Part shown: piece by piece, positions 1-26,662 of the stretch
Layout: each line of letters begins with the position of its first letter
Numbering within the stretch: the first letter of the stretch is position 1
Origin: Candidatus Omnitrophota bacterium
Lineage (GTDB): Bacteria > Omnitrophota > Gorgyraeia > 2-01-FULL-45-10
Reading direction: 5' to 3'
Assembly (NCBI GenBank): GCA_026387175.1
Contig: JAPLME010000011.1
Location: forward strand, 1,856 to 65,855
DNA length: 64,000 nucleotides
The notes under the pieces: generated by a model
Told to the model about the DNA's origin: nothing
What the model saw: only the letters and a program-made list of their open reading frames with translations
Database searches by the model: none
Translations under genes and position numbers: made by a program

Positions 1-3000
1 CATAACTGGTTTAACGGTACTGCCGGTAATGTCTACTGGACCAACGCTTCAGGTGATGGCAAATGGTCCACGGCAGCTAACTGGTCAACCGGTGTTATTC
101 CACAGACAACAGACTCAGTTGTGTTCAATGCTACCTCGACCACAAACTGTTCAGTTAACCAGGCAGCTACGGTCACCAACCTCACTCTTGACACAGGTTA
201 CACCGGCACGGTTACCTTAGGTGCAACTTCAGGACAAGATCTTACCGTAACTAACTCTATCGCCATTAACACCAACGGCGGCATACTTGTTGACAACGGC
301 AGAGTAGTGAACTTTAAGAATGTTGCAATTGTTTCTGAAAGTAATCACCTGAATTCTACTGGCAACTGGAAGCAAACAGCCAGCGGAAATATATCGGCTT
401 ATTATCCCGAAGCTTTTAATAGCCTTGAATTGGCAAGCGGAGTTACCGCGACCTTAACCAATAGCATAAGTGTGAGGAAAGTTATTCTTGGCAGTAATGC
501 TACAATTACCGGAAATACAAGCTATCGTCTTTGGATATCTCCCACGGCAGATAATTTTATTACTCAGGGCACAGGCTCAAATATTTCTTTGCCAATTCAT
601 ATAACTGGTATAACCAGTAATATAAACCAAGGCGCCTTGAATGTTTCCGGGGCTGTTTTCCTTCGTGATAGCAACAATAAAATTTTGACCATGACTGGGG
701 ATTGGAATATTGGCACGTTGACGATATGGGGAACCAACGCGACTGGCTCCGTAGTTACCATTGATACCAACGGAAATAACTTAACTATAACAGGCGATTT
801 AGCTATATCAAACGGAGCCGTCAATTATGCCAATCAACAACTTGGCAAAATCCTCTTTAAAACCGGAAATCATACAATTACAGGTGATGTATATATCCTT
901 GGCCAAGGCCAATACACCCACGGCTACATTGACTTTGGCTCAAGCACGGTGAATGTAGGGGGGAACCTTGACTTTAGATACGCCTCAGTTACTCCCGGAA
1001 CATCAACTGTAAACCTTACCGGCGCTACCACTGCCAATATCTATAGTATTGTGGATTATACTTATAAAGACGCTACCTTAGATAATGCGGTATTGAATAC
1101 AGCGCCGTTCTATAAATTAACCTCAACCGTAGCAGGGAAGACCGTTAAATTTGAAGCAGGGAAGACCGTAACGATAGCCAATAACCTAAACCTTGCCGGA
1201 ACCGGAACAGGCATCAATCTCTTAACCTTAAACTCTACCACTTCCGGCACTGCCGCGAAACTAAATGTCGCGAGCGGCGCTACAGTTACCGGCATGAATT
1301 ACTTAAGTGTCAAGGATTCCGACGCTTCGAGCGGCAAGGGTATCGTCGCATCTAATTCGACCAATGTTAGTAATAATACCAACTGGTTCTTTGGCGCCGC
1401 CGGCAGTAATTATTGGGTTAATAACTCAGGCGACGGCAAGTGGTCCACTGCCGCTAACTGGTCCACCGGTAGCGTGCCAACTTCGGCTGACAATGTTGTG
1501 CTTAACTCCGCCTCAGCTTCAAACTGCAGTTTCGATACAGGGGTGGCTAATACCACAGTCGCTAGCCTCACTCTGGACACAGGCTATACCGGCACTCTGA
1601 CCTTAGCGCAAGGTATTACGGTCACCGGAACGCTTAAAGTAACCCAAGGCACATTTGACGCCGCTACCTATAATGTAAATGCCGCTAACTTCACTTCCAC
1701 AGGAATATTGGCTCGAACACTTAACTTAGGGACAGGGAGTACCTGGACCATATCAGGTAACTGGGACTCTTCAGGCGGTAATATTACGGTTAATCCAGGT
1801 ACCTCAACCGTTACTCTCACCGGAGACGGCACAGTTAAAGCCTGTCCCAGCGTTACTACTTTCTATAACCTCTCAGCGGCCGCATCAGGCATGACCACTA
1901 CTATTGCCCGGGATCCTTCTAAGAATATGTGGGTGGCGGGGGGATGGGGCGTTAATAACTACTTTGCCTACTCTTCTGACGGGATTACTTGGACAGGCTT
2001 GGGCACAAACACATGCCTTACCACCGTCCATAACATCTGCGGGAATGGTTCTAAGTTCGTGGCGGTAGGTACTGGCCCTAGTTCCATTGCCTACTCTACT
2101 AACGGGATTACCTGGACAGGCTTGGGCACAAGTATATTCTCAGGTAATGGCGCCTTTGGCGTCTGCTGGAACGGCTCTAAGTTCGTAGCTGTAGGGCATG
2201 GCGCTAATACCATTGCCTACTCTTATGATGGCATTGCCTGGGCAGCCGCTCCAGGCAGTACAAACATATTTTCAATCAACGCAAACGGCGCCGACATCTG
2301 CTGGAACGGCTCTAAGTTCGTTGCTGTAGGAGACGGAACTAATACCATTGCCTACTCCTCTGATGGCATTAACTGGACAGGCTTGGGCACAAGTATATTC
2401 TCAAGCTATGGCAAAAGCGTTGCCTGGAACGGCACTCGCTTTATAGCAACAGGTTCTGGCAATAGTACTCTTGCCTATTCCTCTGACGGTATTACCTGGG
2501 TAGGCTTAGGCACAAGCATATTCTCAAGCTATGGCTGGGGCGTCGCCTGGAACGGCACCCGTATTATAGCAACAGGCGCTGGCACCAATACCATTGCCTA
2601 CTCTTCTGATGGTATTACCTGGGTAGGCTTAGGCTCAAGTATATTCATAACCTTCGGAGGCGGCATCTGCTGGAATGGTTCTAAGTTCGTCGCTGGCGGG
2701 CAAAGCCCTGGCAGCGCCTATTCAACTGATGGGATCACCTGGACAAGCGGTGGAGTCCCAATGGCAGTCGGCTACGGCGTTTGCTCCATCCCAGCCCCCA
2801 AACTCGTTCCACCTATCCTATCAGATGACATAAAGGTCTCAAATAACCTCACATTAGGTGGAGGTACACTCACTCGTAACGGCACCGACCAGATAGCCTT
2901 AACCTTAACTAGCGCCACCCCTACAGTAACATTAGGAGGCTCTACGATTAGTAGCGGCACAATTATCAGATACGCTCCCGCAGCAGGCTCAGGCGCTACC

Positions 3001-6000
3001 ACTGTCACTATCCCAGGAGGCGCCTACAGCGGAGCTAAGATCGAAGCCTATACTAAGCTTAATTATAGCGTCGCCCAGCCCCAAGGAGCTGTCACATATC
3101 AGTTAGGGGGGAGCATCACCTCATTAGCCAATCTAAACATCTACGCTGATGTAGGGCTACCAGCCACTACATTCAGCTTAGTAAATGGCTCTAATAATTA
3201 TAACCTTACCTCTAATAGCCTTACATTAGGTAAAGATGAAGTAACTAACGGATCTGTCACATTTAATTCAGGAAGTGGCACAGTAGCTCTACCGTCACTT
3301 ACAAACCTCGTTCCTTCCACTAATAATAGCGGCTTACACACTCTTAACCTTAACACATCCACCTGGAATGTGGCAGGGGACTGGGATACCTCAGGCAATA
3401 ACATTATACTTAATCCAAGCACCTCAACTGTTAACCTTACCGATAACGGTATACTTAAGACTAACCCCTCTACCACAAGCTTCTATAACCTATCCTGCGC
3501 GGTCACAGGTAAGACCACAACAGTTGCCCGGGACCCTTCTAAGAATATGTGGGTAGCGGCAGGCGAAGGCACCAACTCTCTTGCCTACTCTTCTGATGGT
3601 ATTACCTGGGTAGGCTTAGGCACAAGTATATTATCATACCGTGGCCGAGGCGTTGCCTGGAACGGCACCCGTTTCGTAGCAACAGGCGCTGGCGCCGACT
3701 CCCTTGCTTATTCTTCCAATGGGATTAATTGGACAGGCCTTGGCTCAAGCATATTCTCCGGCACTGGCCGCTACGTTGCCTGGAACGGCACCCGTTTCGT
3801 AACAGTAGGCACTGGCGCTAACTCCATTGCTTACTCCTCCGACGGTACTAATTGGACTGGGGTGACTACCACAAGCATATTCTCAGCCTATGGCTACGGC
3901 ATTGCCTGGAACGGCACCCGCTTCGTAGCAACGGGCAGCGGCACCAACAACTCCATTGCTTACTCCTTCGATGGCATTACTTGGACAGGCCTTGGCACAA
4001 GCATATTTTCAAGCAGTGGTACCGGCATTGCTTGGAACGGCACCCGTTTCGTGGCAGTGGGTAGTGGCACCAACTCCATTACCTACTCTTCCGATGGCAT
4101 TACCTGGACCGGTTTAGGTAAAAGCATATTCTCAGTCAATGGCTACGATGTTGCCTGGAACGGCACCCGTTTCGTAACAGTAGGCACTGGCACCAACTGC
4201 ATTGCCTACTCTTCAGATGGCATCACCTGGACAGGTTTAGGCACAAGTGTATTCTCAAGCTATGGCTACAGCATCGGCTCTTGCCCTGCTCCTAAACTTA
4301 CTCCACCCGTCCTAAGCGATGACATACCGGTCTTGAATACCCTCACCTTAGGCGGCGGCACACTCACCCGTAACGGCACCGACCAGGTAGCCTTAACATT
4401 ACGTAAGGACACCGGCAATTTCTTAGTGTTAAATAACTCCACGATCAGTAATAATGCTATTATCCGCTTCGCTCCTCTGGCTAACGCCTCAAGTCCTAAG
4501 ACTGTCTCTATCCCCGGAGGCGACTACGGCACAGCTCAAGTAGAAGCCTATGTCCAGACTAATAACGCTGTAGCCCAGCCTCAAGGAGCTATCAGCTATC
4601 AACTAGCGGGAAATATCGCGGGGGCAAACAGCTTAAATATCTACGCTGACTCTAATCTCTCCACAACCTTTGGCTTAAATAGCTACAATCTTTATACCGC
4701 TACTCCAGGGCTCCTCTATTTAGGTAAAGACTGTGCTCAAGGCGCAGTTACCTTTAATTCAGGTGCAGGCGCGGTAACCTTAGCCGCAACACCTCTCTCA
4801 AGCATAGTCGCGGATAACGCCGGAAGCCACACGCTCAATATGAACTCTTCCACCTGGAATATCTCCGGTGACTGGTGTCCTGAAGGTCTGACAAGCGGCA
4901 CCTCCAGCTCACTCAGTGTAGCCCCCAGCACATCCACTGTCAATATCACCGGCACCGGCACTACCACAATCTATGGCTCAAAGACCGCTACTCCTTCGAC
5001 ACCGTTTAATAACCTGTATACTCCTGTCGGCGGCTTAACTGACAAAACTATCAAGGTCAATGCCGGAAGCACACTTCAGATAGCCGGTATTCTGGGATTG
5101 CGGGGACAGGGCGAGAGCAGCCCGCTTAATTTCCAAAGCACTACCGCAGGAACTGCAGCTAATCTTAACGTTCTAGGCTCGACCGCCAATATGCAATACC
5201 TTAATGTCACAGACTCCAATGCTTCGGGCGGGAAGAAGATTCTCGCGTGTTCTTCCACTATTGACACCTACAGCTTGAATCATAACTGGGTTAACGGCAT
5301 TGTCGGTAATGTCTATTGGACCAATGCCTCTGGCGACGGCTTATGGTCCACCGCGGCTAACTGGTCCACAGGAGCTGTGCCGGTTTCGACAGACTCAGTC
5401 GTATTCAACGCTACCTCGACCACACCCTGCTCGGTTAACCAAGCAGCGACGGTTACAAACCTCACTATGGACACAGGATACACCGGCACAGTGACTTTAA
5501 GCGCAACGTCAGGACAGGATTTAACCGTTACAGGCTCTATTACCATTAGTACCAACAGCGGTACGCTAGTAGATAATGGACGAACAGTTAATTTCAAGAA
5601 TGTCTCTATTGCTTATGAAAACACGCCCGTGCATCTTACTTCTACGGGTAATTGGAAAATGATTTCCAGCGGAACTATTTTTGGCCCTCAAGATAGTTCT
5701 AAAATTAATAGCCTTGAGCTGGCAGCCGGAGTTACCGCGAATTTGTTGACAAATTGCACTGTTAACATAAGAAACCTTATCCTTGGAAATAATTCCGTGC
5801 TTACCGGTTATTATATGATAATTGTGCCTACAACCAATAATTTTATTACCCAGGGTACCGGAGCAACTATTTCTGCGACTTTAGAGATTTGTCCAGGTGA
5901 CATGAACCAGGGCGCTCTGACTACATCCGGACCTGTAAAGATTACCTGGGGCGCTAACCGTACTTTGACCATGACCGGAGATTGGAATATTGGTGGATAC

Positions 6001-21000: not shown

Positions 21001-24000
21001 AATTTTGATACGACCCTGGACGCGGTGGACCTGTACTCGAATATCTGCGATGGGGCAAACCTTGCGCCGGCCTATAACGGTACCGGCAAGACCATCGGCT
21101 GGCCGCTGGTCGATGCCGCGACAGGCAATTCCGGGATAGTTAACGGCCCTGAAACCGGCACCGATGCTTACACCAACCCGGTCGACTTCACAAGCGGCCG
21201 CTCGACCACGCCGCTTAGCGCCACGCTCTATTACGCGCAGACTATTAAGATAGCTCCAAGCGTTACCGGGTTAAGCGCCGGAACCCCGTCCAATAGTATC
21301 GTCGTGCGCCCGGCTGTGCCGAACAGGATCAGATTTACCCAGCAACCGTCCACATCCTGTTTAGCTAATCAGACGCTGGGACAACAGCCATGTGTAGCCA
21401 TCTCTGACCAGTATGGAAATATCTGCGTAAATACCCCTGGCCAGATAACGTTAAAGGCCTCTACTACCCGCGACTCTTATACGTCGGTTATCAATGGTGT
21501 ACTCCGTCCAGCCAGCGGCCTTTTTGTAGCTACGTCAGGCGGTGTGGCGACATTCACAGGCGTGAACTATACTTACCCTGAAATAATATATCTCAGGGCC
21601 CAGGCGTCAGTATCAGGTTATCCATACATTGCCGATATCTATTCTAATGGAATAAATGTGGTCGCGGGCACGGACCTGACCGTTTCCGCGGTATCCGCCA
21701 ATCCCACAGTCTCATCCATAGCAAACGCGAGCACCGATAAAACGGCGGTATTCGCGTTTAAGATCACTGACGCGGGCACTGACGGCCTGGTCGGACTGAT
21801 AAAGAAGATCGTGATCAATCGTTCAGACGCTTATGAGGCGCTTGACTGGACACAATACATAAAAGACGCGGTCCTGAGCGACGGCACAGTTGAAATAGCC
21901 GGCGCTATAGAAGCGAACGCTATCACCTTCGGCACGGGAACCGCGAATATATATACTGTGCCGAATAACGCCAATAGGACATATACGCTCAGCATTACCA
22001 TCAAGAACTCACTGCCCGCCGGAGCGGATGGAAAGATCCTTGGATTTACGATCAATGCCCGTGACGATATAACTCTTAATGACGCGGGCACTTCAGTGTT
22101 CGCGGACGTGGTTGACCCGGTTACCGCCGGTTCAGCCATTGATGTAGTAGCTACCAACCTTGTGATAAACGGCGACTCTAATATGGATGCCGGCACGCCC
22201 AAGAATATAACAATTACGGCCAAAGACAAGAATAATAATATAGATAAGGATTTTGATGATCACGGGGTAGGGACGAGGGTTATATTTTCGGGCGCTTCCG
22301 TAGTGCAGTCGGACAGGGACTATGGGCCAACCTGCACAGATTATACCGGATCCGGTAAAGCATTCGGCGAACCGACGAGTATATACTTTGCCTCCGGCGT
22401 CAGCACATCTACGATCACTATGTATCTATATAAGGCAGAGACCGCCACCATCTTGGCCTCGGCCGCGTATTTGGGCCACCAGGTGGTTTCCAGTTCCACC
22501 GGCCAGGGCAGGCTGATGGTTACAGTCAGAGGCGGCACCGGCTCCCAGCTCTCCTGGAGCACCAAGCCGGCAGTTAAAGCGGTAGCCGACGCCCCATGGA
22601 AAGCATTCATCGTCGCGGTAATCGACGCTTACGGCAATACCGCTTCGGATGACAGGGAGATAACAGTGAGTATTCCAGACGGCTTATCGCTCTCTCCCGG
22701 TGCTTCCAATAAGGCCACGGCCAACGGAGGGGTAGCCACCTTCGATCATTATGCTGTTCGCGCTCCCGCCGACGCGGCATATCCTAAATATTTTACCGTG
22801 ACAGCTTCCGCCGGAGGTATTTCTACGCCGGAGTCCGACCAGGTCACCCTTGATAAAGAGTACAAAATTTATATAACGGTGAAGGATACAACCAACGCGA
22901 CTACGCTAACCGGGTTTACTTTTACCGTTAAAGATACTAATGGCGTAGACAAGATACCTGAGACTACGCCGGCGCCGCCGTACCCATTTATGATATCTCT
23001 TCCTTATGGGACATATACCTTCATCTACAATCTGGATAAGTATGTTACCTTGAGCCCGGAGAAGGCTGTCAGCGTAGCGAGTGACGCCTCTGACGGCAAA
23101 TATGACAATGTTATTAACTGGACGGAGTATATGACCAGCCTCACTGAAGCTACGGCGGACTATCGTGTAATGTCGAGTTTTGCCTACGATGAAGATAATG
23201 AGTCGCTGGCGATCAGGATATGGCTGGAACGGCGCGGCAAGCTGATAGTGAATAATGACGTAAATAAGATGGGCCCCGCCACGATCGAGGCTTATGAGCC
23301 TAATGAGACAGCGCTCAACGTGATAAATATAGGCGCTCCCGATCCTAATCCCGACTCCGATGGCAATTATTCGACCATCGGCGCCACCTATAAAACTACA
23401 GTAGACAACATCCTGCTGTCCAAAGGCCCGTCTAATTTATTCGGCAAGGCGCTGGAAGCCGGAAAGACGTATTTCGTAAAATGCAAGATAAGTTATGGCG
23501 GCCTTGGCACCGACGGCGTTTACGGAAGCACATATGAAGGCGGCACGACGTTTACCGTGACGGTCAGCCAGAAACTGACTAAACAGATAATAACCCAGTT
23601 GGGTGTGGCCGCCGGCCAAACGGTGGTCGGCGAAATAGCCAAAACGCAGACTGCGGTAGCGGCTGTCAGCACCAGAGTGGATACTAAGGCTGCCGAGGTC
23701 GGCGCTAAAGTGGAGACGGTGGGCACTCAGGTGGCCGCCGCTAACGCTAACGTTTCCAATGTTGGCTCACAGGTCACTAATGTCCAGAGTTCGGCGGCAT
23801 CTATCCTGGAAGGCGTGAACACTACCTTGCCGACGAAGGTTGTGTCTGAATTGGCAAAAGGAGTCATGAGCGAGATGCTCACGCGTAATACGGTCTTAAG
23901 GGCTGACGACTCGATAAAGATAAGATACCGCACAGCGAGCGGACTGGTTCCTACAATGACTATATATAAGGAAGATGGCACCATTCTACCGGACTATAAT

Positions 24001-25032
24001 GGTGTGAAGATGAAAGAGATAAGCAACACAGGTATATACGAATACGAGGTTACTGCCAAAGAAGATTGGGGAGCAGGCGAATTCACAGCCGCATGTTCGG
24101 AGAGCACCAAAAATTCCAAGGACAGCATGACCTTAACTATCAAGGCGCTATATACCGCTGGCGCGGGTGTGCAGGAATCCGTAGATGCCGTCGGTGATGC
24201 TGTGTCGAAAGTCTATACGAGGCAGAAAGCTATCGAAGGGTTGCTGGGAAGTTCAGTCGATACGAAGGCCGCCACCACTATATTCGGAAAGGTTAACGGC
24301 CTTAACACTACCGTGGACAGCCTGAACCTTACCACGGTCTCCGCGGACGCGAAGAACGCCAGGACGAACGCGCAGAATGTCGCTAATGAGATCGAAAATA
24401 TAGTTAAGAGCGTGGGTGATATGAAGGCTCAAGCCGCGTCGCTGAAGGAGCTGTCGAACCAGCTCGAACTTATGAAGAGCAGCCTCAGTAAGATATCCCA
24501 GAACACCACCGTGATAACTTCAACCCCTGCCGCTCCCGCGACCACATCATTCGATGGCGGCGCCACTACAGCATCTTCCGGCGGCGGCACCGCTACAGCG
24601 GTATCCGGCGGCACCACTACTATAATCGCGAGCACGGCCGCCCCGGTGAGTACGACAGAGAGCGGTTCGATCATTATGCAGGGCACGCCGGGCGCGCCGC
24701 GGCCGGGTCTTTATTCCAAAAATTATCCGCCCGGCACTTATCGCACGAAGGTCTCTGTCAGCGAGGGCGCGGTCACGGTCGCGGAGTATAATGACGCGGG
24801 AAGCGTTTACAGCACAGAGCGTCGTATATACGACGGACAGAGCACGGTCGTTGTCTCGACTATAGGGAAGGCCACCGGCACGGGTACGGGCGCCGGCGGC
24901 AAGTCCGCTTCGGACATGACTAATCTTAACAACAGGGTAGAGGAGCTGACCGCGCTGGTTAAAGTTTTGACCAAGATGATTGAAACCACGAATAATAAAC
25001 CGATCGTCGAGGGCTGGTTCGAGCAAGGGTAA
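1..25032 (+). CDS. Giant repetitive extracellular-type protein, 5'-partial (more than 8,303 aa in window). It contains PATR-like beta-helix segments, six Asp-box-like beta-propeller arrays, Ig-like domain arrays and a coiled-coil tail
   Basis: Frame 1 is open from base 1 (HNWFNGTAGNVYWTNASGDGKWSTAANWSTG...) with no stop until TAA at 25030-25032. The track's Met at 121 is internal, not the real start. The codon periodicity of the repeats is conserved. All antisense and off-frame ORFs inside are short. Composition is N/T/S/G-rich, with conserved Cys (KACPS, CPAPKL, DWCPE) pointing to an exported protein. Confidence 0.85.
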   Translation, partial: HNWFNGTAGNVYWTNASGDGKWSTAANWSTGVIPQTTDSVVFNATSTTNCSVNQAATVTNLTLDTGYTGTVTLGATSGQDLTVTNSIAINTNGGILVDNGRVVNFKNVAIVSESNHLNSTGNWKQTASGNISAYYPEAFNSLELASGVTATLTNSISVRKVILGSNATITGNTSYRLWISPTADNFITQGTGSNISLPIHITGITSNINQGALNVSGAVFLRDSNNKILTMTGDWNIGTLTIWGTNATGSVVTIDTNGNNLTITGDLAISNGAVNYANQQLGKILFKTGNHTITGDVYILGQGQYTHGYIDFGSSTVNVGGNLDFRYASVTPGTSTVNLTGATTANIYSIVDYTYKDATLDNAVLNTAPFYKLTSTVAGKTVKFEAGKTVTIANNLNLAGTGTGINLLTLNSTTSGTAAKLNVASGATVTGMNYLSVKDSDASSGKGIVASNSTNVSNNTNWFFGAAGSNYWVNNSGDGKWSTAANWSTGSVPTSADNVVLNSASASNCSFDTGVANTTVASLTLDTGYTGTLTLAQGITVTGTLKVTQGTFDAATYNVNAANFTSTGILARTLNLGTGSTWTISGNWDSSGGNITVNPGTSTVTLTGDGTVKACPSVTTFYNLSAAASGMTTTIARDPSKNMWVAGGWGVNNYFAYSSDGITWTGLGTNTCLTTVHNICGNGSKFVAVGTGPSSIAYSTNGITWTGLGTSIFSGNGAFGVCWNGSKFVAVGHGANTIAYSYDGIAWAAAPGSTNIFSINANGADICWNGSKFVAVGDGTNTIAYSSDGINWTGLGTSIFSSYGKSVAWNGTRFIATGSGNSTLAYSSDGITWVGLGTSIFSSYGWGVAWNGTRIIATGAGTNTIAYSSDGITWVGLGSSIFITFGGGICWNGSKFVAGGQSPGSAYSTDGITWTSGGVPMAVGYGVCSIPAPKLVPPILSDDIKVSNNLTLGGGTLTRNGTDQIALTLTSATPTVTLGGSTISSGTIIRYAPAAGSGATTVTIPGGAYSGAKIEAYTKLNYSVAQPQGAVTYQLGGSITSLANLNIYADVGLPATTFSLVNGSNNYNLTSNSLTLGKDEVTNGSVTFNSGSGTVALPSLTNLVPSTNNSGLHTLNLNTSTWNVAGDWDTSGNNIILNPSTSTVNLTDNGILKTNPSTTSFYNLSCAVTGKTTTVARDPSKNMWVAAGEGTNSLAYSSDGITWVGLGTSILSYRGRGVAWNGTRFVATGAGADSLAYSSNGINWTGLGSSIFSGTGRYVAWNGTRFVTVGTGANSIAYSSDGTNWTGVTTTSIFSAYGYGIAWNGTRFVATGSGTNNSIAYSFDGITWTGLGTSIFSSSGTGIAWNGTRFVAVGSGTNSITYSSDGITWTGLGKSIFSVNGYDVAWNGTRFVTVGTGTNCIAYSSDGITWTGLGTSVFSSYGYSIGSCPAPKLTPPVLSDDIPVLNTLTLGGGTLTRNGTDQVALTLRKDTGNFLVLNNSTISNNAIIRFAPLANASSPKTVSIPGGDYGTAQVEAYVQTNNAVAQPQGAISYQLAGNIAGANSLNIYADSNLSTTFGLNSYNLYTATPGLLYLGKDCAQGAVTFNSGAGAVTLAATPLSSIVADNAGSHTLNMNSSTWNISGDWCPEGLTSGTSSSLSVAPSTSTVNITGTGTTTIYGSKTATPSTPFNNLYTPVGGLTDKTIKVNAGSTLQIAGILGLRGQGESSPLNFQSTTAGTAANLNVLGSTANMQYLNVTDSNASGGKKILACSSTIDTYSLNHNWVNGIVGNVYWTNASGDGLWSTAANWSTGAVPVSTDSVVFNATSTTPCSVNQAATVTNLTMDTGYTGTVTLSATSGQDLTVTGSITISTNSGTLVDNGRTVNFKNVSIAYENTPVHLTSTGNWKMISSGTIFGPQDSSKINSLELAAGVTANLLTNCTVNIRNLILGNNSVLTGYYMIIVPTTNNFITQGTGATISATLEICPGDMNQGALTTSGPVKITWGANRTLTMTGDWNIGGYLMVFGSSSFGTTGMMTLDTNGKNLTVGGDLQLGNSDSSYANDFLGKILFKNGTHTIGGKIFVMNGNTPSTCYTHGYFDFGQSTVNVGGNLDFRCASVTPGTSTVNLTGTTAATIYSIVDYAYKDTILDTPVLNTAPFYNLASSAASKIIKFEAGKTVTVANNLSLAGASGNLLTLNSTTAGTAANLNILGTATGMNYLSVKDSNASGGKGIITYNSTNVSNNTNWFFGTAGNNYWLNASGDGLWSTPANWSTGIVPVSGDNVYFNTTSTSDCSFDTGATNTTVASLTLDTNYTGTLTLAQGITVTGTLKVTQGTFDAATYNVNAANFTSTGALARTLNLGTGSTWTIAGNWDSSGGNITVNPGTSTVTLTGTGTVKACPSVTTFYNLSAAASGKTTTIARDPSKNIWVATGVGANTLAYSSDGTNWTGLGSSIFSGNGYGAAWNGTHFVATGYGTNSLAHSYDGIIWTGLGTSIFSTQGLGICWNGTKFVAVGEGTNTIAYSSNGITWTGLSSSIFSVFGDGVAWNGTRFVAVGYGTNSITYSPDGITWTGVTGKSIFSDYGMNIAWNGTRFVAVGQGTNSLAYSSDGIIWIGLGTSIFSTSGRGVAWNGTRFVAVGWGTNSIAYSSDGITWTGLGYSGLSSHGNSVAWNGTSFVAIGLGTNNIAYSSDGITWTGVTGTSIFSVNGVGVASCLAPKLTPPILSDGIKITNGLTLNGGTLTRNSTDQVALSLTSNTPTLTLGSSTISNSAIIRYAPVATSGATTVTIPGGAYSGAKIEAYSKTNYGVTQPQGSITYKLGGSITSAANLNIYADVGLPSTTFSLVNGASNYNLTSTSLTIGKDEVTNGTITFNSGSGTVALASLTNLVPSTNNSGLHTLNLNTSTWNVAGDWDTSGNNIILNPSTSTVNLTGSGTLKTSPNTTSFYNLSCAASGKTTTVARDPSKNIWVAAGQGTNSLAYSYDGINWVGLGINIFAINGYGACWNGSKFIVVGQGTNTLAYSSDGINWTGLGTSIFSTRGYGIAWNGTRFVAGGGGVNFLAYSSDGTTWTGLGTSVFSTAGYGVAWNGTCFVSVGSGTNSIAYSSDGITWTGLGTSVFSTAGNGVAWNGTRFVAVGYGTTSPGTNSIAYSSDGITWTGLGTSIFSTGIGYGVAWNGTRFIATGGGTNSLGYSSDGIIWTGQAVFLSQGNGVCWNGSKFVAVGYAGGTNSIAYSSDGIIWTGLGSSIFSYYGRSVCSSSAPKLTPPILSDDIPVLNTLTLGGGTLTRNGTDQVALTLRKDTGNFLVLNNSTISNNAIIRFAPLANATSAKTVSIPGGDYGTAQLEAYVQTNNAVDQPQGPISYQLAGNIAGANSLNIYADSNLSTTFGLNSYNLYTATPGLLYLGKDCARGAVTFNSGAGAVTLAATPLSSIVADNAGAHTLNMNSSTWNISGDWCPESQTSGTSSALSVVPGTSTVNITGTGATTIYGSKTATPSTPLYNLYTPSGGLVDKVIKVNAGSTLQIAGTLRLQGQNSGSPLYFQSTALGTPASLNLQGSAVSMQYLVVKDSDATSGKKILAYDSTIDTYSLNHNWIGGTVGIVYWTNASGDGLWSTAANWSTGAVPVSTDSVIFNVVSGSSPTSNCSVNQAVTVANLTLDTGYTGTVILSSTSGQDLTVTGSININTNGGALNDNGRNVNFVNASIVNEGNRLYSNGNWKMTANGNIKNANGGNIFNKTFEVGAGVTATLTSDIWTKGLILGNNAVVTGGSTIVFYYPPNDFIAQGAGSVISSTIDIDLSGNRSQGALTTTSSVNFYWHTATLTMTDNWHIGGYLSIYSGSSGATAILDTNGKNLTVDGNLYLGNTVYYGQILFKTGTHTIGGNMYVNQSGSPSHGYFDFGSSTVNVAGNVDFRYASVKPGTSTIVFTGTNAATIRALTSDDTSFDALSLNNTAPFYKLTSTVAGKTINFEAGKTVTVANNLTLAGTGMGANLLTLNSTVAGTTANLNVAGTATGMNYLSVKDSDASIGKGIVAYNSTNVSNNTNWYFGASGNNYWLNASGDGKWSTPTNWSTGIVPTLGDNVYFNTTSTSNCSFDTGVVNTSVNSLTLDTGYTGTLTLAKNITVTTALTVTQGTFNAATYNVNAANFTSTGALARALNLGTGSIWTISGNWDSSGGNITVNPGTSTVTLTGDGTVKACPSVTTFYNLSAAASGKTTTIARDPSKNIWVAGGYNPNSAAYSVNEGVNWTKSSSLASILDQACQGIAWNGTRFVAMGSTSNSIAYSSDGVTWIAAPNSKNIFSTRGYGIAWNGTRWVGVGGGINSIAYSSDGIIWTGLGTISTNIFSIYGTNIAWNGNRFVAVGNGTNNTLAYSSDGITWTGLGTSVFSSNGRGLAWNGTRFVATGSGTNSIAYSSDGINWIGLGTSVFSNNGTSVAWNGTRFVATGSGTNSIAYSSDGINWTGLGTVSTNIFSIYGTNIAWNGNRFVAVGYSGGGTSVAYSSDGIIWTAATVSGIFSGDGYAIASSPAPKLTPPILSDDIKVSNALTLGGGTLTRNGTDVVALTLTSATPTVTLGGSTISNNAIIRYAPVAGASDTIVNIPGGAYSGARIEAYTKRNGSITQPQGALTYRLGGSITSAASLNIYADVGLPATIFNLYDGSNSYNLASSGLILGKDEVTNGNITLNSGTGTVALNSLTGLVPSTNNSGSHILNLNSSTWNVAGDWDTSGNNIVLNPGTSTVNLTDTGTIKTSPNTTSFYNLSAAANGKTTTVARDPSKNIWVAVGNGANTIAYSSDGITWTGLGAGILSSYSYGVCWNGSKFVAVGQGTNSIAYSSDGIIWTGVTVHSVFSTNGRGVCWNGSKFVAVGQGTNSIAYSSDGIIWTGLGTSIFSYGYNVCWNGSKFVAVGGSINSIAYSSDGIIWTGLGAGIFSPYSHGVCWNGSKFVAVGEGNNTIAYSSDGITWTGLGYSIFSPYGHGIAWNGSKFVAVGGSINSIAYSSDGITWTGLGTSSFLYGRGVCSILTPKLTPPVLSDDIPVLNTLILGGGTLTRNGTDQVALTLRNNDSDSLALNSSTISNNAIIRFAPPAPGAMDGVAEPITVTIPAGNYGTAQVEAYAQFNNSVDQPQGVISYKLAGDITAAGSLNIYADAGLPATTFSLNDGANNYNLYSSTPGLIYLGKDCAQGAVTFNSGSGTVNVTSFGIIPNNAGSHTVNLNSSTWNISGDWQPEGEGNSASNLNAGTSTFHYIGTGAATLYGLKSGPNINTMPFYNLTSTAAGKTLNFEAGKTVKIANNISLTGGSSKMLLRSTSTGSYWNINVAPAATATFMSYLDVKDSDASSGNTIAATACIGSTQHNLNWTFSTGGAAIWIADGAKNWSDATAWSTVSVPTTTGTAEILFTGDHKGACTINAAANVKSINILSGYTGTITQAGTVTAGSGGYAQADGVFNCGGQAVNVNGPFTLSGGTFDAANSTIAITGGNINLSGGAFAPVASTVTLSGTCAINSDIPALNIMTFNPGTYTIAAGKTISAPANSLLSFAGTGTSNMVTLRSSAPGTRWNLANASGSTVTPVYTDVMDSNASNLISAANSKDSGNNINWVCTGTLTNASVLPASLVAGVSGNVTVNFTTVNPIPNNGKIVVTLPSNFTFNSGGATAVSGAPTGIDGNFSVSVEGPSAIITRSGGTSAGAGAKSIILTNIKNPTAPCTTGTYSIATRTSADASIDSLTGIAGSVITAASVTSWDLNMNAGTLTLNFNAGITAASLAATGITIQNTIASPSASYTLTDSTTASSNGTAITITLSDTDRNTIKATANLAKAQNSSCLSITSAAFMDLYNNPITAITGSLAMNVTNYTTDITAPGLSSWTLDMNTHMVEMTFNEPVAISSFDQTKFTIQDDSGHAYTLAASNNTYIEDPYDNMLAGGYAIGSTNNMKLRIKLTTKDFNALVDDANIAKARSSSYLVIATESGVRDKATLANALAAIPATNAASYTANSVVAAQFYVTTSSYATATTLTAGTFKDIVIKAYDNLGYRTPAYTGDKTVVFSDAGLSADQIAPKAKDKNNVSIVFGTGTTIAFTNGRGTSTITLYKKEVVLIKATVGAITTADNYSLTVTVNPDVKAKLVFTTQPSATGIINSALTQQPVVVIRDQYGNRTADTDEIQINASTAGIFFNPAAGTLSATSNPLAAVDGEAVFAGVKYNIAETIYIYASSGNLAGAYSGAIELSSGVSTTVEAAAQPQASFPLIPTNDIETEKFTVLKFKIKDAGDDGTPTLIDRIKIAITGTAQPSASTDIAWAELRANNGGDHQVTFVAGPSGFEVDGSTTYIVFGNEPDARSDSTLGAIAADGTIPDGGEIEYTVKIYMKPSKLTATDKQGYNFTTNESLIGVDMGVSSRMTTDSGKITPVVGQITVNVSNFEIVDQTPPNNAAINVIAGIASYLQVRATDSNKNIDIDYAGVKSLIFSGLSSINGYTPTIGTTTKVTFGAPTSINFVAGQSYNLTGTAVALTAYAKGTENLRAADYNKTPPPYGVFPCAVTVDSTTANSIGLAAGNNQSGLGGRALSNPLAAIVRDLYGNPVNSGTAVTFAVSSEPAGTTTHAGLDTPTTSTGSNGQASTHLTLGNAKGTYQVTATSGSLAGSPVTFSASARVPATLYIFGGNHQSAVVATQLPLALVVQLLDSETIPQPIAGETINFAIKAQPTGAGSFLSSSTAVTDAEGKAQVPQILFTLGMIAGTDAYEVRATYSNLTPADFTATAAPSPAYKAVLDGPASVNAGIVATFSINIKDTYDNASTIATTPMAFNITATPSLGAFYSDAACTSAPITTMTVPGGSSTATFYFKSSVTGTANIAATTTDVRLDADHRVGSITGFTVMPESLHHFTVTAANTDPMTVGEPRTLSIKARDIYDNVKTDLNATFNVTFSGATVSPSPSSAALGTAPTCSGHGSEAVGANITGTPVAFGQSTSISFANGAATTIFTPYKAEAAQITATSGITTPTPLSLTVKHGAAHHLKFHDNILSPQTAGTAFNFDTTLDAVDLYSNICDGANLAPAYNGTGKTIGWPLVDAATGNSGIVNGPETGTDAYTNPVDFTSGRSTTPLSATLYYAQTIKIAPSVTGLSAGTPSNSIVVRPAVPNRIRFTQQPSTSCLANQTLGQQPCVAISDQYGNICVNTPGQITLKASTTRDSYTSVINGVLRPASGLFVATSGGVATFTGVNYTYPEIIYLRAQASVSGYPYIADIYSNGINVVAGTDLTVSAVSANPTVSSIANASTDKTAVFAFKITDAGTDGLVGLIKKIVINRSDAYEALDWTQYIKDAVLSDGTVEIAGAIEANAITFGTGTANIYTVPNNANRTYTLSITIKNSLPAGADGKILGFTINARDDITLNDAGTSVFADVVDPVTAGSAIDVVATNLVINGDSNMDAGTPKNITITAKDKNNNIDKDFDDHGVGTRVIFSGASVVQSDRDYGPTCTDYTGSGKAFGEPTSIYFASGVSTSTITMYLYKAETATILASAAYLGHQVVSSSTGQGRLMVTVRGGTGSQLSWSTKPAVKAVADAPWKAFIVAVIDAYGNTASDDREITVSIPDGLSLSPGASNKATANGGVATFDHYAVRAPADAAYPKYFTVTASAGGISTPESDQVTLDKEYKIYITVKDTTNATTLTGFTFTVKDTNGVDKIPETTPAPPYPFMISLPYGTYTFIYNLDKYVTLSPEKAVSVASDASDGKYDNVINWTEYMTSLTEATADYRVMSSFAYDEDNESLAIRIWLERRGKLIVNNDVNKMGPATIEAYEPNETALNVINIGAPDPNPDSDGNYSTIGATYKTTVDNILLSKGPSNLFGKALEAGKTYFVKCKISYGGLGTDGVYGSTYEGGTTFTVTVSQKLTKQIITQLGVAAGQTVVGEIAKTQTAVAAVSTRVDTKAAEVGAKVETVGTQVAAANANVSNVGSQVTNVQSSAASILEGVNTTLPTKVVSELAKGVMSEMLTRNTVLRADDSIKIRYRTASGLVPTMTIYKEDGTILPDYNGVKMKEISNTGIYEYEVTAKEDWGAGEFTAACSESTKNSKDSMTLTIKALYTAGAGVQESVDAVGDAVSKVYTRQKAIEGLLGSSVDTKAATTIFGKVNGLNTTVDSLNLTTVSADAKNARTNAQNVANEIENIVKSVGDMKAQAASLKELSNQLELMKSSLSKISQNTTVITSTPAAPATTSFDGGATTASSGGGTATAVSGGTTTIIASTAAPVSTTESGSIIMQGTPGAPRPGLYSKNYPPGTYRTKVSVSEGAVTVAEYNDAGSVYSTERRIYDGQSTVVVSTIGKATGTGTGAGGKSASDMTNLNNRVEELTALVKVLTKMIETTNNKPIVEGWFEQG
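1921..2785 (+). repeat. Propeller-like blade array 1a, about 7 blades of 42 aa (approximate bounds)
   Basis: Repeated blocks of the form IAYSSDGITWTGLGTSIFS..G.GVAWNGTRFVAVG.GTNS. The array ends at a conserved C-PAPKL-PP linker. Confidence 0.6.
3541..4285 (+). repeat. Propeller-like blade array 1b (approximate bounds)
   Basis: Same 42-aa blade periodicity. The array is preceded by the TTTVARDPSKNMWVA motif and ends at SCPAPKLTPP. Confidence 0.6.
7210..8075 (+). repeat. Propeller-like blade array 2a (approximate bounds)
   Basis: Same blade repeat family. Confidence 0.6.
8825..9705 (+). repeat. Propeller-like blade array 2b (approximate bounds)
   Basis: Same blade repeat family. Confidence 0.6.
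12601..13500 (+). repeat. Propeller-like blade array 3a (approximate bounds)
   Basis: Same blade repeat family. Confidence 0.6.
14255..14985 (+). repeat. Propeller-like blade array 3b (approximate bounds)
   Basis: Same blade repeat family. It contains near-identical consecutive blades (CWNGSKFVAVGQGTNSIAYSSDGIIWTG occurs twice). Confidence 0.6.
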
Positions 25033-26660: not shown

Positions 26661-26662
26661 AG

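What the first reader, a model, noticed from the sequence alone, without database searches (positions are those of the whole stretch)
1..25032. Giant uninterrupted ORF (more than 24.9 kb in window, 5' end off-window) encoding a hyper-repetitive exported-type protein
A single reading frame is open from base 1 to 25032, which is at least 8,303 codons with no stop, and the real start lies further upstream. The composition is N/T/S/G-rich and there is a distinctive domain architecture. Genes this large are rare in bacteria. In some ultrasmall lineages such as Omnitrophota they are implicated in attachment to or predation on other cells. The protein looks extracellular: it has beta-helix passenger-like repeats, propellers, Ig-like domains and conserved cysteines.
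Basis: partly seen in the sequence, partly recalled or inferred. Interest (0 to 1): 0.85.

Follow-up and report, generated by a model that had tools for sequence, protein, structure and literature searches.

The report
Giant Omnitrophota surface-fibre gene (partial)
This is the real, intact 3' 25 kb of a giant gene from an ultrasmall Omnitrophota bacterium; it encodes a modular, membrane-helix-free protein that is most likely a surface adhesion fibre, which is typical for this phylum, but it sits in a conserved locus with a partner membrane protein, an unusual ATPase and a pilus/secretion system that had not been linked to such genes.

Summary
Frame +1 is open from base 1 to 25029 (8,343 codons, TAA at 25030-32). 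The chance probability is about 1e-165, and internal paralogous modules show dN/dS of 0.06-0.22. Six independent assemblies reproduce the 3' 9.9 kb exactly. Base 1 falls in a module junction, so the gene continues upstream.

Relatives range from 3,017 to more than 7,000 aa and start with a signal peptide or anchor. In 8 of 8 loci examined the long ORF lies just upstream of an atypical F-type ATPase cluster. In 7 of those loci a conserved bitopic partner (GGDEF-fused in L007 and L014) lies between them, and where the sequence extends far enough a T2SS/T4aP-like cluster follows.

The best reading is a Sec-exported adhesion fibre. Giant ORFs are already well documented in Omnitrophota, so this is a new variant of a known kind, and interest is moderate.

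The parts
1..25029 (+). Giant ORF, 5'-incomplete (8,343 codons in the window)
   Evidence: Open frame; chance probability about 1e-165; 3' 9.9 kb reproduced in six independent assemblies
1..5280 (+). Cassette copy 1: A 1-1323, B 1321-1920, 41-aa array 1912-2799, D 2803-3384, 41-aa array 3532-4290, D 4297-4875, cap 4876-5280
   Evidence: Self-BLAST and module HMM map
5281..10701 (+). Cassette copy 2: A 5281-6612, B 6610-7209, 41-aa array 7201-8085, D 8089-8670, 41-aa array 8818-9714, D 9718-10296, cap to 10701
   Evidence: 75% aa identity to copy 1, dN/dS 0.21
10702..15600 (+). Cassette copy 3: A 10702-12000, B 11998-12597, 41-aa array 12589-13512, D 13516-14097, 41-aa array 14245-14994, D 15001-15600
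   Evidence: 68% aa identity to copy 2, dN/dS 0.22
5308..6330 (+). Right-handed parallel beta-helix (block A, confidently modelled part, aa 1770-2110)
7201..8085 (+). Best-preserved 7 x 41-aa repeat array (AWNGTRFVAVGxGTNSIAYSSDGITWTGLG...), a putative 7-bladed Asp-box-like beta-propeller; five further arrays are listed in the cassette entries
   Evidence: Period 41 by autocorrelation and stacked repeats; alignment A3. Fold not verified. Family of 9,229 cluster representatives
15601..17271 (+). Transition region (aa 5201-5757) with one degenerate B-like module (aa 5311-5509)
17272..25029 (+). Family-conserved C-region (aa 5758-8343): tandem Ig/MG-like beta-sandwich domains, helices and tail
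   Evidence: 39.7% identity over 2,748 alignment columns to the long ORF of L010 and 42% over 2,195 columns to L007; AF2 and Foldseek for aa 7144-8343; weak Big_1 hits
23569..24504 (+). Two helical segments of about 100 residues (aa 7857-7956 and 8058-8168), coiled-coil-like, flanking a small beta domain (aa 7965-8050)
   Evidence: DSSP on the AF2 model. Confidence is low in the helices and about 80 in the beta domain
24901..25029 (+). Conserved C-terminal tail: amphipathic helix NNRVEELTALVKVLTKMIE followed by NNKPIVEGWFEQG
   Evidence: 72% identical to L007 over the last 40 aa. Seven of the eight family loci examined end in P[IV][VI]EGW[FL]E; L019 carries the variant PVVQTWFE
25030..25032 (+). 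TAA stop, then a 21-nt spacer with a GAGGA ribosome-binding site before the partner gene
   Evidence: no terminator-like site between the two genes
25054..26415 (+). Conserved partner, 453 aa: signal peptide, two repeats of about 190 aa, C-terminal TM helix
   Evidence: No Pfam, NCBIfam or PDB match; topology and internal repeat; 67 homologs, every named one from Omnitrophota, several with a GGDEF fusion; always directly downstream of the long ORF
26379..31455 (+). Atypical F-type ATPase cluster: epsilon, b/delta fusion, c, alpha, gamma, beta; no a subunit
   Evidence: Alpha and beta pass genuine F0F1 cutoffs; gamma, epsilon and b/delta fall far below, and c has no hit
31495..39972 (+). T2SS/T4aP-like cluster: GspE/PilB with an MshE-type c-di-GMP motif, GspF/PilC, peptidase MA, GspG, three minor pseudopilins, GspK, PilM-PilN fusion, PilO; no secretin or prepilin peptidase

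Best explanation
Bases 1-25032 are the 3' 25 kb of an intact gene of a Candidatus Omnitrophota bacterium. It encodes a protein of more than 8,343 residues that has no transmembrane-like segment and is almost entirely beta-structured, most likely an adhesion fibre on the cell surface.

Shown: the protein belongs to a family known so far only from Omnitrophota-labelled or unlabelled metagenomic sequences, and the family has a fixed frame and a variable middle. The frame has two parts. The first is an N-terminal signal peptide or anchor with a Gly-rich head, seen in complete relatives and lying off-window here. The second is a C-region of about 2,600 aa made of Ig/MG-like beta-sandwiches, two helical segments of about 100 residues, and a highly conserved tail (...EELTALVKVL...KPIVEGWFEQG). 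The variable middle is a string of cassettes. Each cassette has a right-handed parallel beta-helix of the adhesin/passenger/tailspike type and arrays of a 41-aa Asp-box-like repeat. There are at least three cassettes here, one or two beta-helix modules in short relatives (3,017 and 3,475 aa), and six or more in others. The gene is followed 21 nt later by a conserved bitopic membrane protein, then by an atypical F-type ATPase cluster and a T2SS/T4aP-like cluster. This order recurs in every locus examined.

Inferred mechanism: the protein is exported by Sec through its N-terminal signal. The conserved C-terminal stalk and tail hold it at the envelope by binding the periplasmic repeats of the partner. 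The lineage-variable beta-helix and repeat cassettes project outward as glycan- or surface-binding modules, and they mediate attachment of the roughly 0.2 um cell to host or prey cells or to particles. Attachment is probably coupled to c-di-GMP signalling, because the partner is GGDEF-fused in some lineages and the adjacent pilus/secretion ATPase carries an MshE-type c-di-GMP-binding motif.
For: Real gene. Source phylum. No TM-like hydrophobic segment in 8,343 aa. Signal peptide or anchor plus Gly-rich head in complete relatives L007 (3,017 aa), L008 (>7,044 aa) and P0044 (3,475 aa). Beta-helix fold with adhesins, passengers and tailspikes as top structural neighbours. Ig/MG-like arrays. Module map and variable cassette number among relatives. 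Shared C-region and tail. Partner family and its GGDEF fusions. Conserved synteny of long ORF, partner, ATPase and T2SS/T4aP-like genes in the window, L007 and L010-L014, with a divergent version in L019. MshE-type c-di-GMP motif on GspE/PilB. [quoted passage not shown] T2SS or pilus flanks are the rule for Omnitrophota giants (bioRxiv 10.1101/2023.11.21.568195; bioRxiv 10.64898/2026.06.07.730766).
Against: There is no experimental evidence of expression, export or binding for this protein. Its own N-terminus is off-window, so the signal peptide is inferred from relatives of 52-59% identity. How a fibre of about 900 kDa would cross the outer membrane is unknown, and the adjacent cluster has no secretin. 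Which end is cell-proximal is an inference. The tail-partner interaction is suggested only by gene adjacency and co-conservation. Beta-helix and Asp-box-like folds are also typical of polysaccharide-degrading enzymes. The propeller assignment is unverified. Bases 1-15149 lack independent assembly support.
Confidence: 0.55

Rival explanations
1. It is a polysaccharide-degrading platform. The beta-helix and Asp-box-like repeat modules would be catalytic (lyase, glycosidase or sialidase-like) and would digest the cell wall or capsule of prey, with the products imported by the porin and sugar ABC system further downstream. This is the role West-Roberts et al. proposed for Omnitrophota giants.
Against: No CAZyme, lyase or sialidase family reaches significance in Pfam or NCBIfam for any piece of the protein. 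The top-ranked structural neighbours are non-enzymatic adhesins and passengers. The Asp-box-like motif is one residue shorter than the canonical S-x-D-x-G-x-T-W. The sugar-uptake genes are 28 kb away, separated from the giant gene by unrelated genes.
Confidence: 0.15
2. It is a structural envelope or coat protein, an S-layer-like scaffold covering the cell, with no role as a specific adhesin.
For: The best Foldseek hit of model 1 is the S-layer protein RsaA, although not significant at E 0.07. The composition is T/S/G/N-rich. [quoted passage not shown]
Confidence: 0.12
3. It is an assembly artefact or pseudogene. Repeats would have been mis-joined into an artificial long frame, or the gene is decaying.
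For: Bases 1-15149 are repeat-rich, with exact repeats of 31-90 nt, and are not reproduced by the independent k=31 assemblies.
Against: Mis-joins would not be expected to preserve one frame over 25 kb when the other frames carry 285-744 stops. Copies are only 67-82% identical at the DNA level and show purifying selection. Relatives from other samples have open frames of more than 7,049 and 4,049 codons with the same modules. The cassette number could still be wrong without affecting the conclusion.
Confidence: 0.03
4. It is the surface working part of an ATPase-driven machine. The fibre and its bitopic partner would be mechanically or energetically coupled to the adjacent atypical F-type ATPase and pilus system. 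Precedents are the Mycoplasma F1-like ATPases that drive the Gli349/Gli521 gliding legs or are required for the MIB-MIP surface system.
For: The long ORF lies just upstream of the ATPase cluster in 8 of 8 loci, over partner identities of 43-100% and also in the rearranged locus L019. The ATPase cluster lacks an a subunit and has very divergent gamma, epsilon, b/delta and c. Seymour et al. describe non-respiratory 'symbiotic' F-ATPases co-located with T4aP in Omnitrophota and relate them to the Mycoplasma gliding ATPases. The type 3 F-ATPase is necessary for MIB-MIP function (PMC12994834).
Against: Alpha and beta score as genuine F0F1 subunits and fall below the cutoffs of the Mycoplasma-type models. 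An a subunit may be encoded elsewhere in the genome. The conserved order could reflect shared ancestry of related genomes. No homology to Gli or MIB/MIP proteins was detected.
Confidence: 0.12

Closest known systems
Omnitrophota giant proteins: Archaeovorin and Dockerin types (West-Roberts et al. 2023, bioRxiv 10.1101/2023.11.21.568195) and the long-protein catalogue of Nielsen & Lui 2026 (bioRxiv 10.64898/2026.06.07.730766)
   Same: Same phylum. It is a very long ORF, largely unannotated by sequence, with a T2SS/pilus cluster nearby and sugar uptake genes further downstream. Repeats are old and diverged at the nucleotide level. Large beta-helical regions are predicted, and attachment to other cells is the proposed role.
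   Different: There are no TM helices, SecA_DEAD, glycosyltransferase, methyltransferase, NUDIX, peptidase, dockerin or TSP3 domains in the 8,343 aa. It fits the minority 'SP-only' and 'Pfam-dark' fractions of the catalogue. It is smaller than those papers' thresholds: above 30,000 aa for the first, and at least 10,000 aa (not demonstrated here) for the second. The secretion/pilus genes lie downstream, not upstream. The gene immediately downstream is the bitopic partner, not PilZ.
Beta-helical adhesins of diderm bacteria: autotransporter passengers (pertactin, Vag8, Hap, UpaB, Ag43), two-partner-secretion exoproteins (HxuA, EtpA, HMW1), and the tapirins and SRRP of Gram-positive bacteria
   Different: There is no C-terminal beta-barrel translocator, since the C-terminus is helices plus small beta domains. 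There are no PATR repeats and no TPS domain in relatives' N-termini. Sequence identity is only 7-16%. The beta-helices are repeated as cassettes interleaved with 41-aa repeat arrays.
RTX 'Lap-type' giant adhesins (LapA with LapD and LapG; MpIBP, SiiE). This comparison rests on my own knowledge.
   Same: They are giant modular adhesins with Ig-like extender arrays. The logic is analogous: a giant adhesin, an inner-membrane c-di-GMP-linked protein and a protease. Here these would be the partner with its GGDEF fusions and a peptidase-MA gene conserved in the locus.
   Different: There are no RTX nonapeptide repeats and no T1SS-type C-terminal signal. Relatives have a Sec-type N-terminus, which T1SS substrates lack. 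The nearby TolC/HlyD/ABC genes are of the ABC-2 type. The partner and peptidase are not homologous to LapD or LapG.
Mycoplasma surface systems coupled to F1-like ATPases: the Gli349/Gli521 gliding legs with the type 2 ATPase (PMC11864180, PMC8406192), and MIB-MIP with the type 3 'F1-like X0' ATPase (PMC12994834, PMC3369863)
   Same: Very large surface proteins are encoded next to, and depend on, an atypical F-type ATPase cluster that lacks a normal F0 a subunit, in host-dependent organisms with reduced genomes. Seymour et al. already relate the Omnitrophota 'symbiotic' ATPases to these.
   Different: No sequence similarity to Gli or MIB/MIP proteins was found. Omnitrophota are diderm: LptF/G, TolC and a porin are encoded in the window. 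Alpha and beta here score as ordinary F0F1 subunits. Functional coupling is untested.
Chlorobium chlorochromatii CaD3 giant parallel beta-helix protein (36,806 aa), as cited by Nielsen & Lui and Seymour et al.
   Same: It is a giant beta-helix-rich putative adhesin of a bacterium that lives attached to another cell.
   Different: The phylum is different, no homology was tested, and the architecture is different.

Membership tests
Archaeovorin-type Omnitrophota giant protein (West-Roberts et al. 2023) | Numerous transmembrane helices | tested here: not met
   Maximum Kyte-Doolittle 19-residue window is 1.48 over 8,343 aa, so there is no TM-like segment. The N-terminus is off-window, but complete relatives have only one N-terminal hydrophobic segment.
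Archaeovorin-type Omnitrophota giant protein (West-Roberts et al. 2023) | SecA_DEAD domain plus glycosyltransferase, methyltransferase, glycosyl hydrolase, peptidase and NUDIX domains | tested here: not met
   None were found by Pfam or NCBIfam on the whole protein or on pieces.
Dockerin-type Omnitrophota giant protein | Many dockerin (PF00404) and TSP type-3 (PF18884) repeats | tested here: not met
   No such Pfam hits.
Omnitrophota long proteins, 'tandem-repeat scaffold' class and SP-only topology (Nielsen & Lui 2026) | At least 10,000 aa, one repeated domain dominating, signal peptide without TM helices | tested here: inconclusive
   Repeated cassettes are present and there is no TM segment. 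Only 8,343 aa are in the window. The repeats are not Pfam families, and the signal peptide is seen only in relatives.
Family defined here (head, variable cassettes, conserved C-region and tail ending in PIVEGWFE, downstream bitopic partner) | Conserved C-region and C-terminal tail | tested here: met
   29-42% identity over 470-2,750 alignment columns, and the tail is conserved in L007, L010-L014 and P0044.
Family defined here (head, variable cassettes, conserved C-region and tail ending in PIVEGWFE, downstream bitopic partner) | Partner gene immediately downstream | tested here: met
   The window has a 21-nt spacer. The same arrangement is found in L007 and L010-L014.
Family defined here (head, variable cassettes, conserved C-region and tail ending in PIVEGWFE, downstream bitopic partner) | N-terminal signal peptide or anchor plus Gly-rich head | not testable with these tools
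   The 5' end is off-window, and the window's own contig could not be retrieved.
Type V autotransporter | C-terminal beta-barrel translocator domain | tested here: not met
   The C-terminal 500 aa are predicted as helices, a linker and small beta domains, with no autotransporter Pfam hit.
Two-partner secretion exoprotein (TpsA) | N-terminal TPS domain and a TpsB partner | tested here: not met
   The N-terminal 372-400 aa of three complete or 5'-complete relatives have no Pfam hit, and no TpsB/POTRA gene lies in the window. The window protein's own N-terminus is unavailable.
RTX/T1SS giant adhesin (LapA-like) | RTX nonapeptide repeats, a C-terminal T1SS signal, no Sec signal, and an adjacent T1SS ABC/MFP/OMP | tested here: not met
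   There is no HemolysinCabind hit. Relatives have Sec-type N-termini. The nearby exporter is of the ABC-2 type.
Pectate-lyase-like right-handed parallel beta-helix fold | Three-faced parallel beta-solenoid | tested here: met
BNR/Asp-box beta-propeller (sialidase, Ycf48, sortilin type) | Asp-box S-x-D-x-G-x-T-W in each blade, and a 6-8-bladed propeller fold | tested here: inconclusive
   The repeat carries SSDG-I-T-W, one residue shorter than the canonical motif, in runs of about seven 41-aa units. AF2 confidence is about 30. There was no Pfam BNR hit and no PDB profile hit.
Bacterial Ig-like / macroglobulin-like beta-sandwich arrays (Big_1/invasin type) | Tandem beta-sandwich domains of about 90-100 aa | tested here: met
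   Foldseek gives 143 hits at E<=1e-3, with complement and alpha-2-macroglobulin MG arrays at 3e-10 and InvD at 1e-6. Pfam Big_1 is below its cutoff at 28.4 against 34.9, so this is fold level only, not Pfam membership.
'Symbiotic' type 2/3 F-type ATPase / T4aP locus of Omnitrophota (Seymour et al. 2023) | F-type ATPase cluster co-located within 10 kb of a T4aP cluster | tested here: met
   The ATPase cluster at 26379-31455 directly abuts the pilus/T2SS-like cluster at 31495-39972.
'Symbiotic' type 2/3 F-type ATPase / T4aP locus of Omnitrophota (Seymour et al. 2023) | Alpha subunit falls in the non-respiratory type 2/3 clade | not tested
   No phylogeny was run. NCBIfam scores alpha and beta above genuine F0F1 cutoffs and below the Mycoplasma-type models, while gamma, epsilon, b/delta and c are highly divergent and the a subunit is absent.

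The most novel reading that the evidence does not exclude
The long fibre, its bitopic partner (with a GGDEF output in some lineages), the atypical F-type ATPase that lacks an a subunit, the locus peptidase-MA and the c-di-GMP-binding T2SS/T4aP-like system together form one conserved Omnitrophota attachment machine. In it the conserved C-terminal tail ending in PIVEGWFE would be a new kind of docking or sorting signal recognised by the partner. The ATPase and/or pilus would energise deployment, movement or release of the fibre. This would be a diderm analogue of the Mycoplasma F1-like-ATPase-coupled surface systems (gliding legs, MIB-MIP).
Probability: 0.15. Interest if true: 0.85.

Novelty: new variant of a known kind. 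Interest (0 to 1): 0.45.

Why it matters
Giant ORFs are a hallmark of Omnitrophota, but their functions are essentially unknown, and published work has concentrated on the TM-rich, enzyme-laden giants. This gene represents a simpler and more tractable class. It has no TM segment and is fibre-like, and its domains can be recognised by structure prediction. It has short complete relatives of 3,017-3,475 aa that could be expressed, and a clear fixed-frame, variable-cassette organisation that suggests diversification of binding specificity.

The conserved tail, the conserved unannotated partner (with occasional GGDEF fusions) and the recurrent position just upstream of the F-type ATPase/pilus locus give concrete, testable hypotheses. 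They address how these ultrasmall, probably host-dependent bacteria anchor and regulate their attachment apparatus, and what the puzzling 'symbiotic' ATPase is for. If none of this holds, the finding is simply one more giant Omnitrophota surface protein.

Tried and rejected
1. Sequence annotation of the giant protein led nowhere. I tried Pfam on halves and on 20 pieces, NCBIfam, and PDB phmmer. The summed 'Amnionless' hit (71 bits) is many weak matches to a cap motif of about 45 aa (W..G.W....NW..G..P...D.V.F) at the start of each A and B module, covering profile positions 7-51 of 442. It is not Amnionless homology.

2. I could not recover the true 5' end. The protein itself is absent from the 5.8-billion and 1.84-billion protein libraries (best identity 58-61%). 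Its genome is not among the species-representative genomes or the JGI metagenome contigs. The 206-kb NCBI contig is not indexed by the contig look-up. I could not determine where the window lies within that contig.

3. The propeller fold could not be verified. AF2 failed on that region. A PDB profile search of the six arrays gave only noise. Short family members have no Pfam match. Module HMMs against the available 3' parts of the syntenic ORFs were uninformative.

5. Autotransporter, TPS, RTX/T1SS, Archaeovorin and Dockerin memberships were considered and rejected; see the membership table.

6. Recent repeat expansion or a collapsed assembly was rejected on DNA divergence and dN/dS.

7. No solved relative was found for the partner.

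Full report
**Observation.** Frame +1 of the window is open from base 1 to base 25029, which is 8,343 codons, and ends with TAA at 25030-25032. The next longest open stretch anywhere in the window is 576 codons. From the base composition of the region, the probability of 8,343 codons without a stop is about 1e-165, and the other five frames of the same stretch contain 285-744 stops. The translated product is T 13.7%, G 11.8%, S 10.7%, A 10.1% and N 8.4%, with only 0.7% Cys.

**Is it an assembly artefact?** A DNA self-comparison shows that the internal repeats are only 67-82% identical and that the longest exact repeat is 90 nt. Between paralogous modules dS is 0.4-1.45 and dN/dS is 0.06-0.22. 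The copies are therefore old and have been kept in this frame by purifying selection. Logan contigs from six different sequencing runs carry the downstream neighbour and are 100% identical to window 15150-36415 or parts of it, with a single mismatch in one contig. A further contig from a seventh run also starts at 15150. That breakpoint is explained by repeated 31-mers, which pepper bases 1843-15086 and stop there. The 5' 15 kb is thus not independently confirmed. The cassette number could in principle be wrong, but a spurious 25-kb frame can be excluded.

**Source.** Seven neighbouring proteins are exact matches to GenBank proteins MCX5678707-MCX5678736 of a MAG labelled Candidatus Omnitrophica/Omnitrophota bacterium (locus tags NTY76_...), on a contig of 206,413 bp. 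I could not determine where the window lies within that contig.

**The 5' end.** The window's first residues (HNWFNGTAGNVYWTNASGDGKWSTAANWSTG...) align position for position with aa 1761 and aa 3568. Each of those is preceded by the C-terminal cap of a previous module (...MQYL.V.DS.A.GGKKILA..TIDTYSLN). Base 1 therefore lies inside a module junction. Complete or 5'-complete relatives show how such proteins begin. These are L007 (JAZDJU010000130.1, an Omnitrophota MAG, 3,017 aa), L008 (Ga0315279_10000772, more than 7,044 aa from an ATG with the RBS GAGGGAGAG) and P0044 (3,475 aa). Each starts with a short basic stretch, one hydrophobic segment of about 20 residues, a motif (S/F)(S/A)SPTD, a Gly-rich head of about 300 aa, and then the first A module. 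At least a partial cassette plus a head of about 330 aa must therefore lie upstream. The gene is more than 8.8 kaa and could exceed 10 kaa. The protein itself is not present in either large protein library, and its contig could not be retrieved.

**Anatomy.** Self-comparison and module HMMs give three cassettes of about 1,800 aa, starting at aa 1, 1761 and 3568. Each cassette has the following parts:
- block A, about 440 aa;
- block B, about 200 aa, which begins with the same cap motif as A;
- an array of about seven 41-aa repeats;
- block D, about 190 aa;
- a second 41-aa array;
- a second D, and a cap.

After a transition region (aa 5201-5757) comes a non-repetitive C-region (aa 5758-8343). 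No TM-like hydrophobic segment exists anywhere in the 8,343 residues; the maximum Kyte-Doolittle 19-residue mean is 1.48. Sequence libraries are blind to this protein. Pfam gives only a summed 'Amnionless' score that arises from many weak matches to the 45-aa cap motif, plus sub-threshold Big_1. NCBIfam and PDB sequence searches give nothing.

**Folds.**
- AlphaFold2 on aa 1761-2960, with an alignment of the three copies and database homologs, models block A at pLDDT about 90 as an all-beta solenoid and block B at 75-85. It fails on the 41-aa array (pLDDT about 30).
- AlphaFold2 on the last 1,200 aa gives a string of beta-sandwich domains (several at pLDDT 75-89). These are followed by a helix of about 100 residues, a small beta domain (pLDDT about 80) and a second helical stretch of about 110 residues. 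The end consists of a disordered T/A/S/G linker, a small beta domain and a terminal helix.
- Foldseek finds 143 hits at E<=1e-3 for this second model. The best, at 3e-10, are arrays of macroglobulin/Ig-like domains (complement C3/C5, bacterial alpha-2-macroglobulin, CD109, TEP1), with invasin InvD and Bap at about 1e-6.
- The 41-aa repeat (AWNGTRFVAVGxGTNSIAYSSDGITWTGLG..SIFS) carries an Asp-box-like SSDGxTW motif, one residue shorter than the canonical form, and occurs in runs of about seven. A 7-bladed propeller is plausible, but nothing I could run verifies it.
- The domain belongs to a very large family that Pfam does not model, with 9,229 cluster representatives at E<=1e-3 and 1,030 at E<=1e-30.
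Only 4 of 29 Cys columns are shared by the three cassettes, against 41 of 57 Trp columns.

**The family.** L007's complete 3,017-aa protein consists of the head, one A module, a region 42% identical to window aa 6010-8168, and a last 40 residues 72% identical to the window's. P0044 has two A modules. L008 has at least six A modules and at least seven 41-aa arrays, and L009 has at least six A modules. The family thus has a fixed frame (head, C-region, tail) and a variable number of cassettes. The window protein is the same protein expanded by at least three cassettes. Homologs of the C-terminal 1,200 aa are few (9 hits, mostly Omnitrophota fragments).

**Context.**
- The stop codon is followed after 21 nt, including a GAGGA ribosome-binding site and no terminator-like site, by a 453-aa ORF. 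This ORF has no Pfam, NCBIfam or PDB match. It has a signal peptide, two repeats of about 190 aa (34% identical, E 2e-29) and a C-terminal TM helix.
- The partner defines a family of 67 database proteins. Every one with an organism name is from Omnitrophota, they are full-length down to 42% identity, and six listed members are fused to a cytoplasmic GGDEF domain. L007's partner is also GGDEF-fused.
- I examined five further members on long contigs (partner identity 43-73%). In each the order is the same: a very long ORF, the partner, F-type ATPase genes (epsilon in four of the five, then b/delta, c, alpha, gamma, beta), GspE/PilB, GspF/PilC, peptidase MA (in four of the five) and GspG. The long ORFs are 4,701, 4,508 and 6,355 aa, or are cut by a contig end at 1,665 and 1,266 aa or more.
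- L007 shows the same start of the series.
- All these long ORFs share the C-region (29-42% identity) and end in ...EELTA[LM]...P[IV]VEGWFE... Their upstream parts carry different modules (RCC1/WD40-like, PKD, Beta_helix/NosD by precomputed Pfam).
- A more divergent locus (L019, tail KKPVVQTWFEFK) has a long ORF, then a 237-aa ORF, peptidase MA, a response-regulator-GGDEF protein and the ATPase genes.
- So in 8 of 8 loci the long ORF is tied to the ATPase cluster.
- In the window the ATPase cluster lacks an a subunit. Alpha and beta pass NCBI's cutoffs for genuine F0F1 subunits, whereas gamma, epsilon and the b/delta fusion score far below cutoffs and c has no hit.
- The GspE/PilB ATPase carries an MshE-type c-di-GMP-binding motif (71.5 bits against a cutoff of 38).
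- The pilus/T2SS-like cluster (31495-39972) has no secretin and no prepilin peptidase.
- Further downstream are LptF/G, a TolC/HlyD/ABC-2 exporter, a LamB-type porin and a sugar ABC importer. The organism is therefore diderm.

**What is known.**
- Seymour et al. (PMC10066038) showed that Omnitrophota cells are about 0.2 um and that giant ORFs above 20 kb occur in many genomes of each class and may be adhesins. They also found that non-respiratory 'symbiotic' type 2/3 F-type ATPases are co-located with T4aP clusters in every class, and they relate these to the Mycoplasma gliding ATPases.
- West-Roberts et al. described Archaeovorin-type giants (TM-rich, with SecA_DEAD and many enzyme domains) and Dockerin-type giants, with T2SS-like loci, PilZ genes and sugar uptake genes nearby.
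- Nielsen & Lui catalogued 5,761 proteins of at least 10 kaa. [quoted passage not shown]
- By text search, none of the three papers mentions the partner, the tail, or a link between long ORFs and the F-type ATPase locus.
- In mycoplasmas, atypical F1-like ATPases drive gliding through giant surface legs (PMC11864180, PMC8406192), and a type 3 ATPase is required for the MIB-MIP surface system (PMC12994834, PMC3369863).

**Interpretation.** What has been shown is the following:
- a real, 5'-incomplete Omnitrophota gene;
- a protein with no TM segment, built of parallel beta-helices, 41-aa repeat arrays, Ig/MG-like sandwiches and helical segments;
- a family with a fixed frame and variable cassettes;
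- a conserved downstream partner;
- a conserved position upstream of an atypical F-type ATPase and a T2SS/T4aP-like cluster.

What is inferred is Sec export through the signal seen in relatives, retention at the envelope through the conserved stalk and tail and the partner, outward display of the variable cassettes as binding modules, and a role in attachment under c-di-GMP control. I put this reading at about 0.55. The rivals are an enzymatic polysaccharide-degrading platform (0.15), a structural coat (0.12), coupling to the ATPase as a machine (0.12, which overlaps with the best explanation and is not exclusive of it) and an artefact or pseudogene (0.03).

**Verdict.** The exceptions are the propellers, which are unverified, and the conserved cysteines, which are not supported. 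The finding is less exceptional than it was scored, because giant ORFs are a known hallmark of this phylum and this one is modest by its standards. It does not fit the two described giant types. It belongs to a distinct, tractable family with an unreported conserved tail, partner and ATPase/pilus linkage. I therefore class it as a new variant of a known kind, with moderate interest.

Noticed in passing
window 26379-31455: The F-type ATPase cluster has an unusual order (epsilon, b/delta fusion, c, alpha, gamma, beta) and no a-subunit gene. Alpha and beta pass genuine F0F1 cutoffs, but gamma, epsilon and b/delta score far below cutoffs and c has no NCBIfam hit. The same cluster, likewise without an a subunit among the called genes, is seen in L010-L014 and L019.
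   Followed up: partly
window 31495-33201: The GspE/PilB-type ATPase carries an N-terminal MshE-type c-di-GMP-binding motif (NF053729, 71.5 bits against a cutoff of 38). This fits the GGDEF fusions on the partner protein in other lineages.
   Followed up: partly
window 34477-35253: A Peptidase_MA_2 gene is embedded between GspF and GspG. The arrangement is conserved in L001 and L010-L013, and in L019 the peptidase gene lies near the long ORF. This is unusual for T2SS/T4P clusters.
   Followed up: partly
window 31495-39972: The T2SS/T4aP-like cluster contains E, F, G, three minor pseudopilins, K, a PilM-PilN fusion and PilO. It contains no secretin (GspD/PilQ) and no prepilin peptidase, and none is found elsewhere in the window.
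   Followed up: partly
window 1912-2799, 3532-4290, 7201-8085, 8818-9714, 12589-13512, 14245-14994; proteins P0042-P0191: The 41-aa repeat domain belongs to a very large family (9,229 cluster representatives at E<=1e-3) that no Pfam model covers. Many members are multi-thousand-residue proteins. Some resemble viral or phage fibre proteins, with collagen-like GPxG repeats (P0125) or C-terminal 'SDSNIKENI...' tails resembling tail-fibre intramolecular chaperone domains (P0046, P0047, P0086).
   Followed up: partly
window 15051-15150: Independent Logan (k=31) contigs from different runs all end at window position 15150, just downstream of the last repeated 31-mer (15051-15086). The repeat-rich 5' part cannot be assembled at that k.
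   Followed up: yes
window 1-200, 1321-1500, 5281-5480 and other module starts: Pfam 'Amnionless' (PF14828) reaches 71 bits summed, against a gathering score of 30.4, with no individually significant stretch. The score comes from a cap motif of about 45 aa (W..G.W....NW..G..P...D.V.F) at the start of every A and B module. Automated annotation could mislabel the protein.
   Followed up: yes
window 43556-43630: A tRNA-Phe (GAA) overlaps the start of the mechanically listed ORF 43552-44193 (NUDIX). The real NUDIX start is probably further downstream.
   Followed up: no
window 46874-58439: A TolC-like OMP, a HlyD-type adaptor, two ABC ATPases and two ABC-2 permeases are followed by a LamB-type carbohydrate porin and a sugar ABC importer. 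This matches the 'carbohydrate import downstream of giant genes' pattern reported by West-Roberts et al., although here it lies 22-28 kb from the giant gene.
   Followed up: no
window 59193-60815: A 540-aa ORF has only weak, sub-threshold AsmA/YhdP, DUF748 and T2SSN-like Pfam hits. It may be an envelope-spanning or lipid-transport-type protein.
   Followed up: no
L013 5720-6637 and 9148-9441: In one relative, an IS200/IS605-type Y1 transposase gene and a GIY-YIG gene are inserted between genes of the ATPase cluster.
   Followed up: no
L014 1-9982; L010 1-9877; L011 1-9985: Syntenic long ORFs in other Omnitrophota share the C-region and tail but carry different upstream modules by precomputed Pfam (Beta_helix/NosD; RCC1_2/WD40_RLD; PKD). 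This suggests cassette swapping on a fixed frame.
   Followed up: partly
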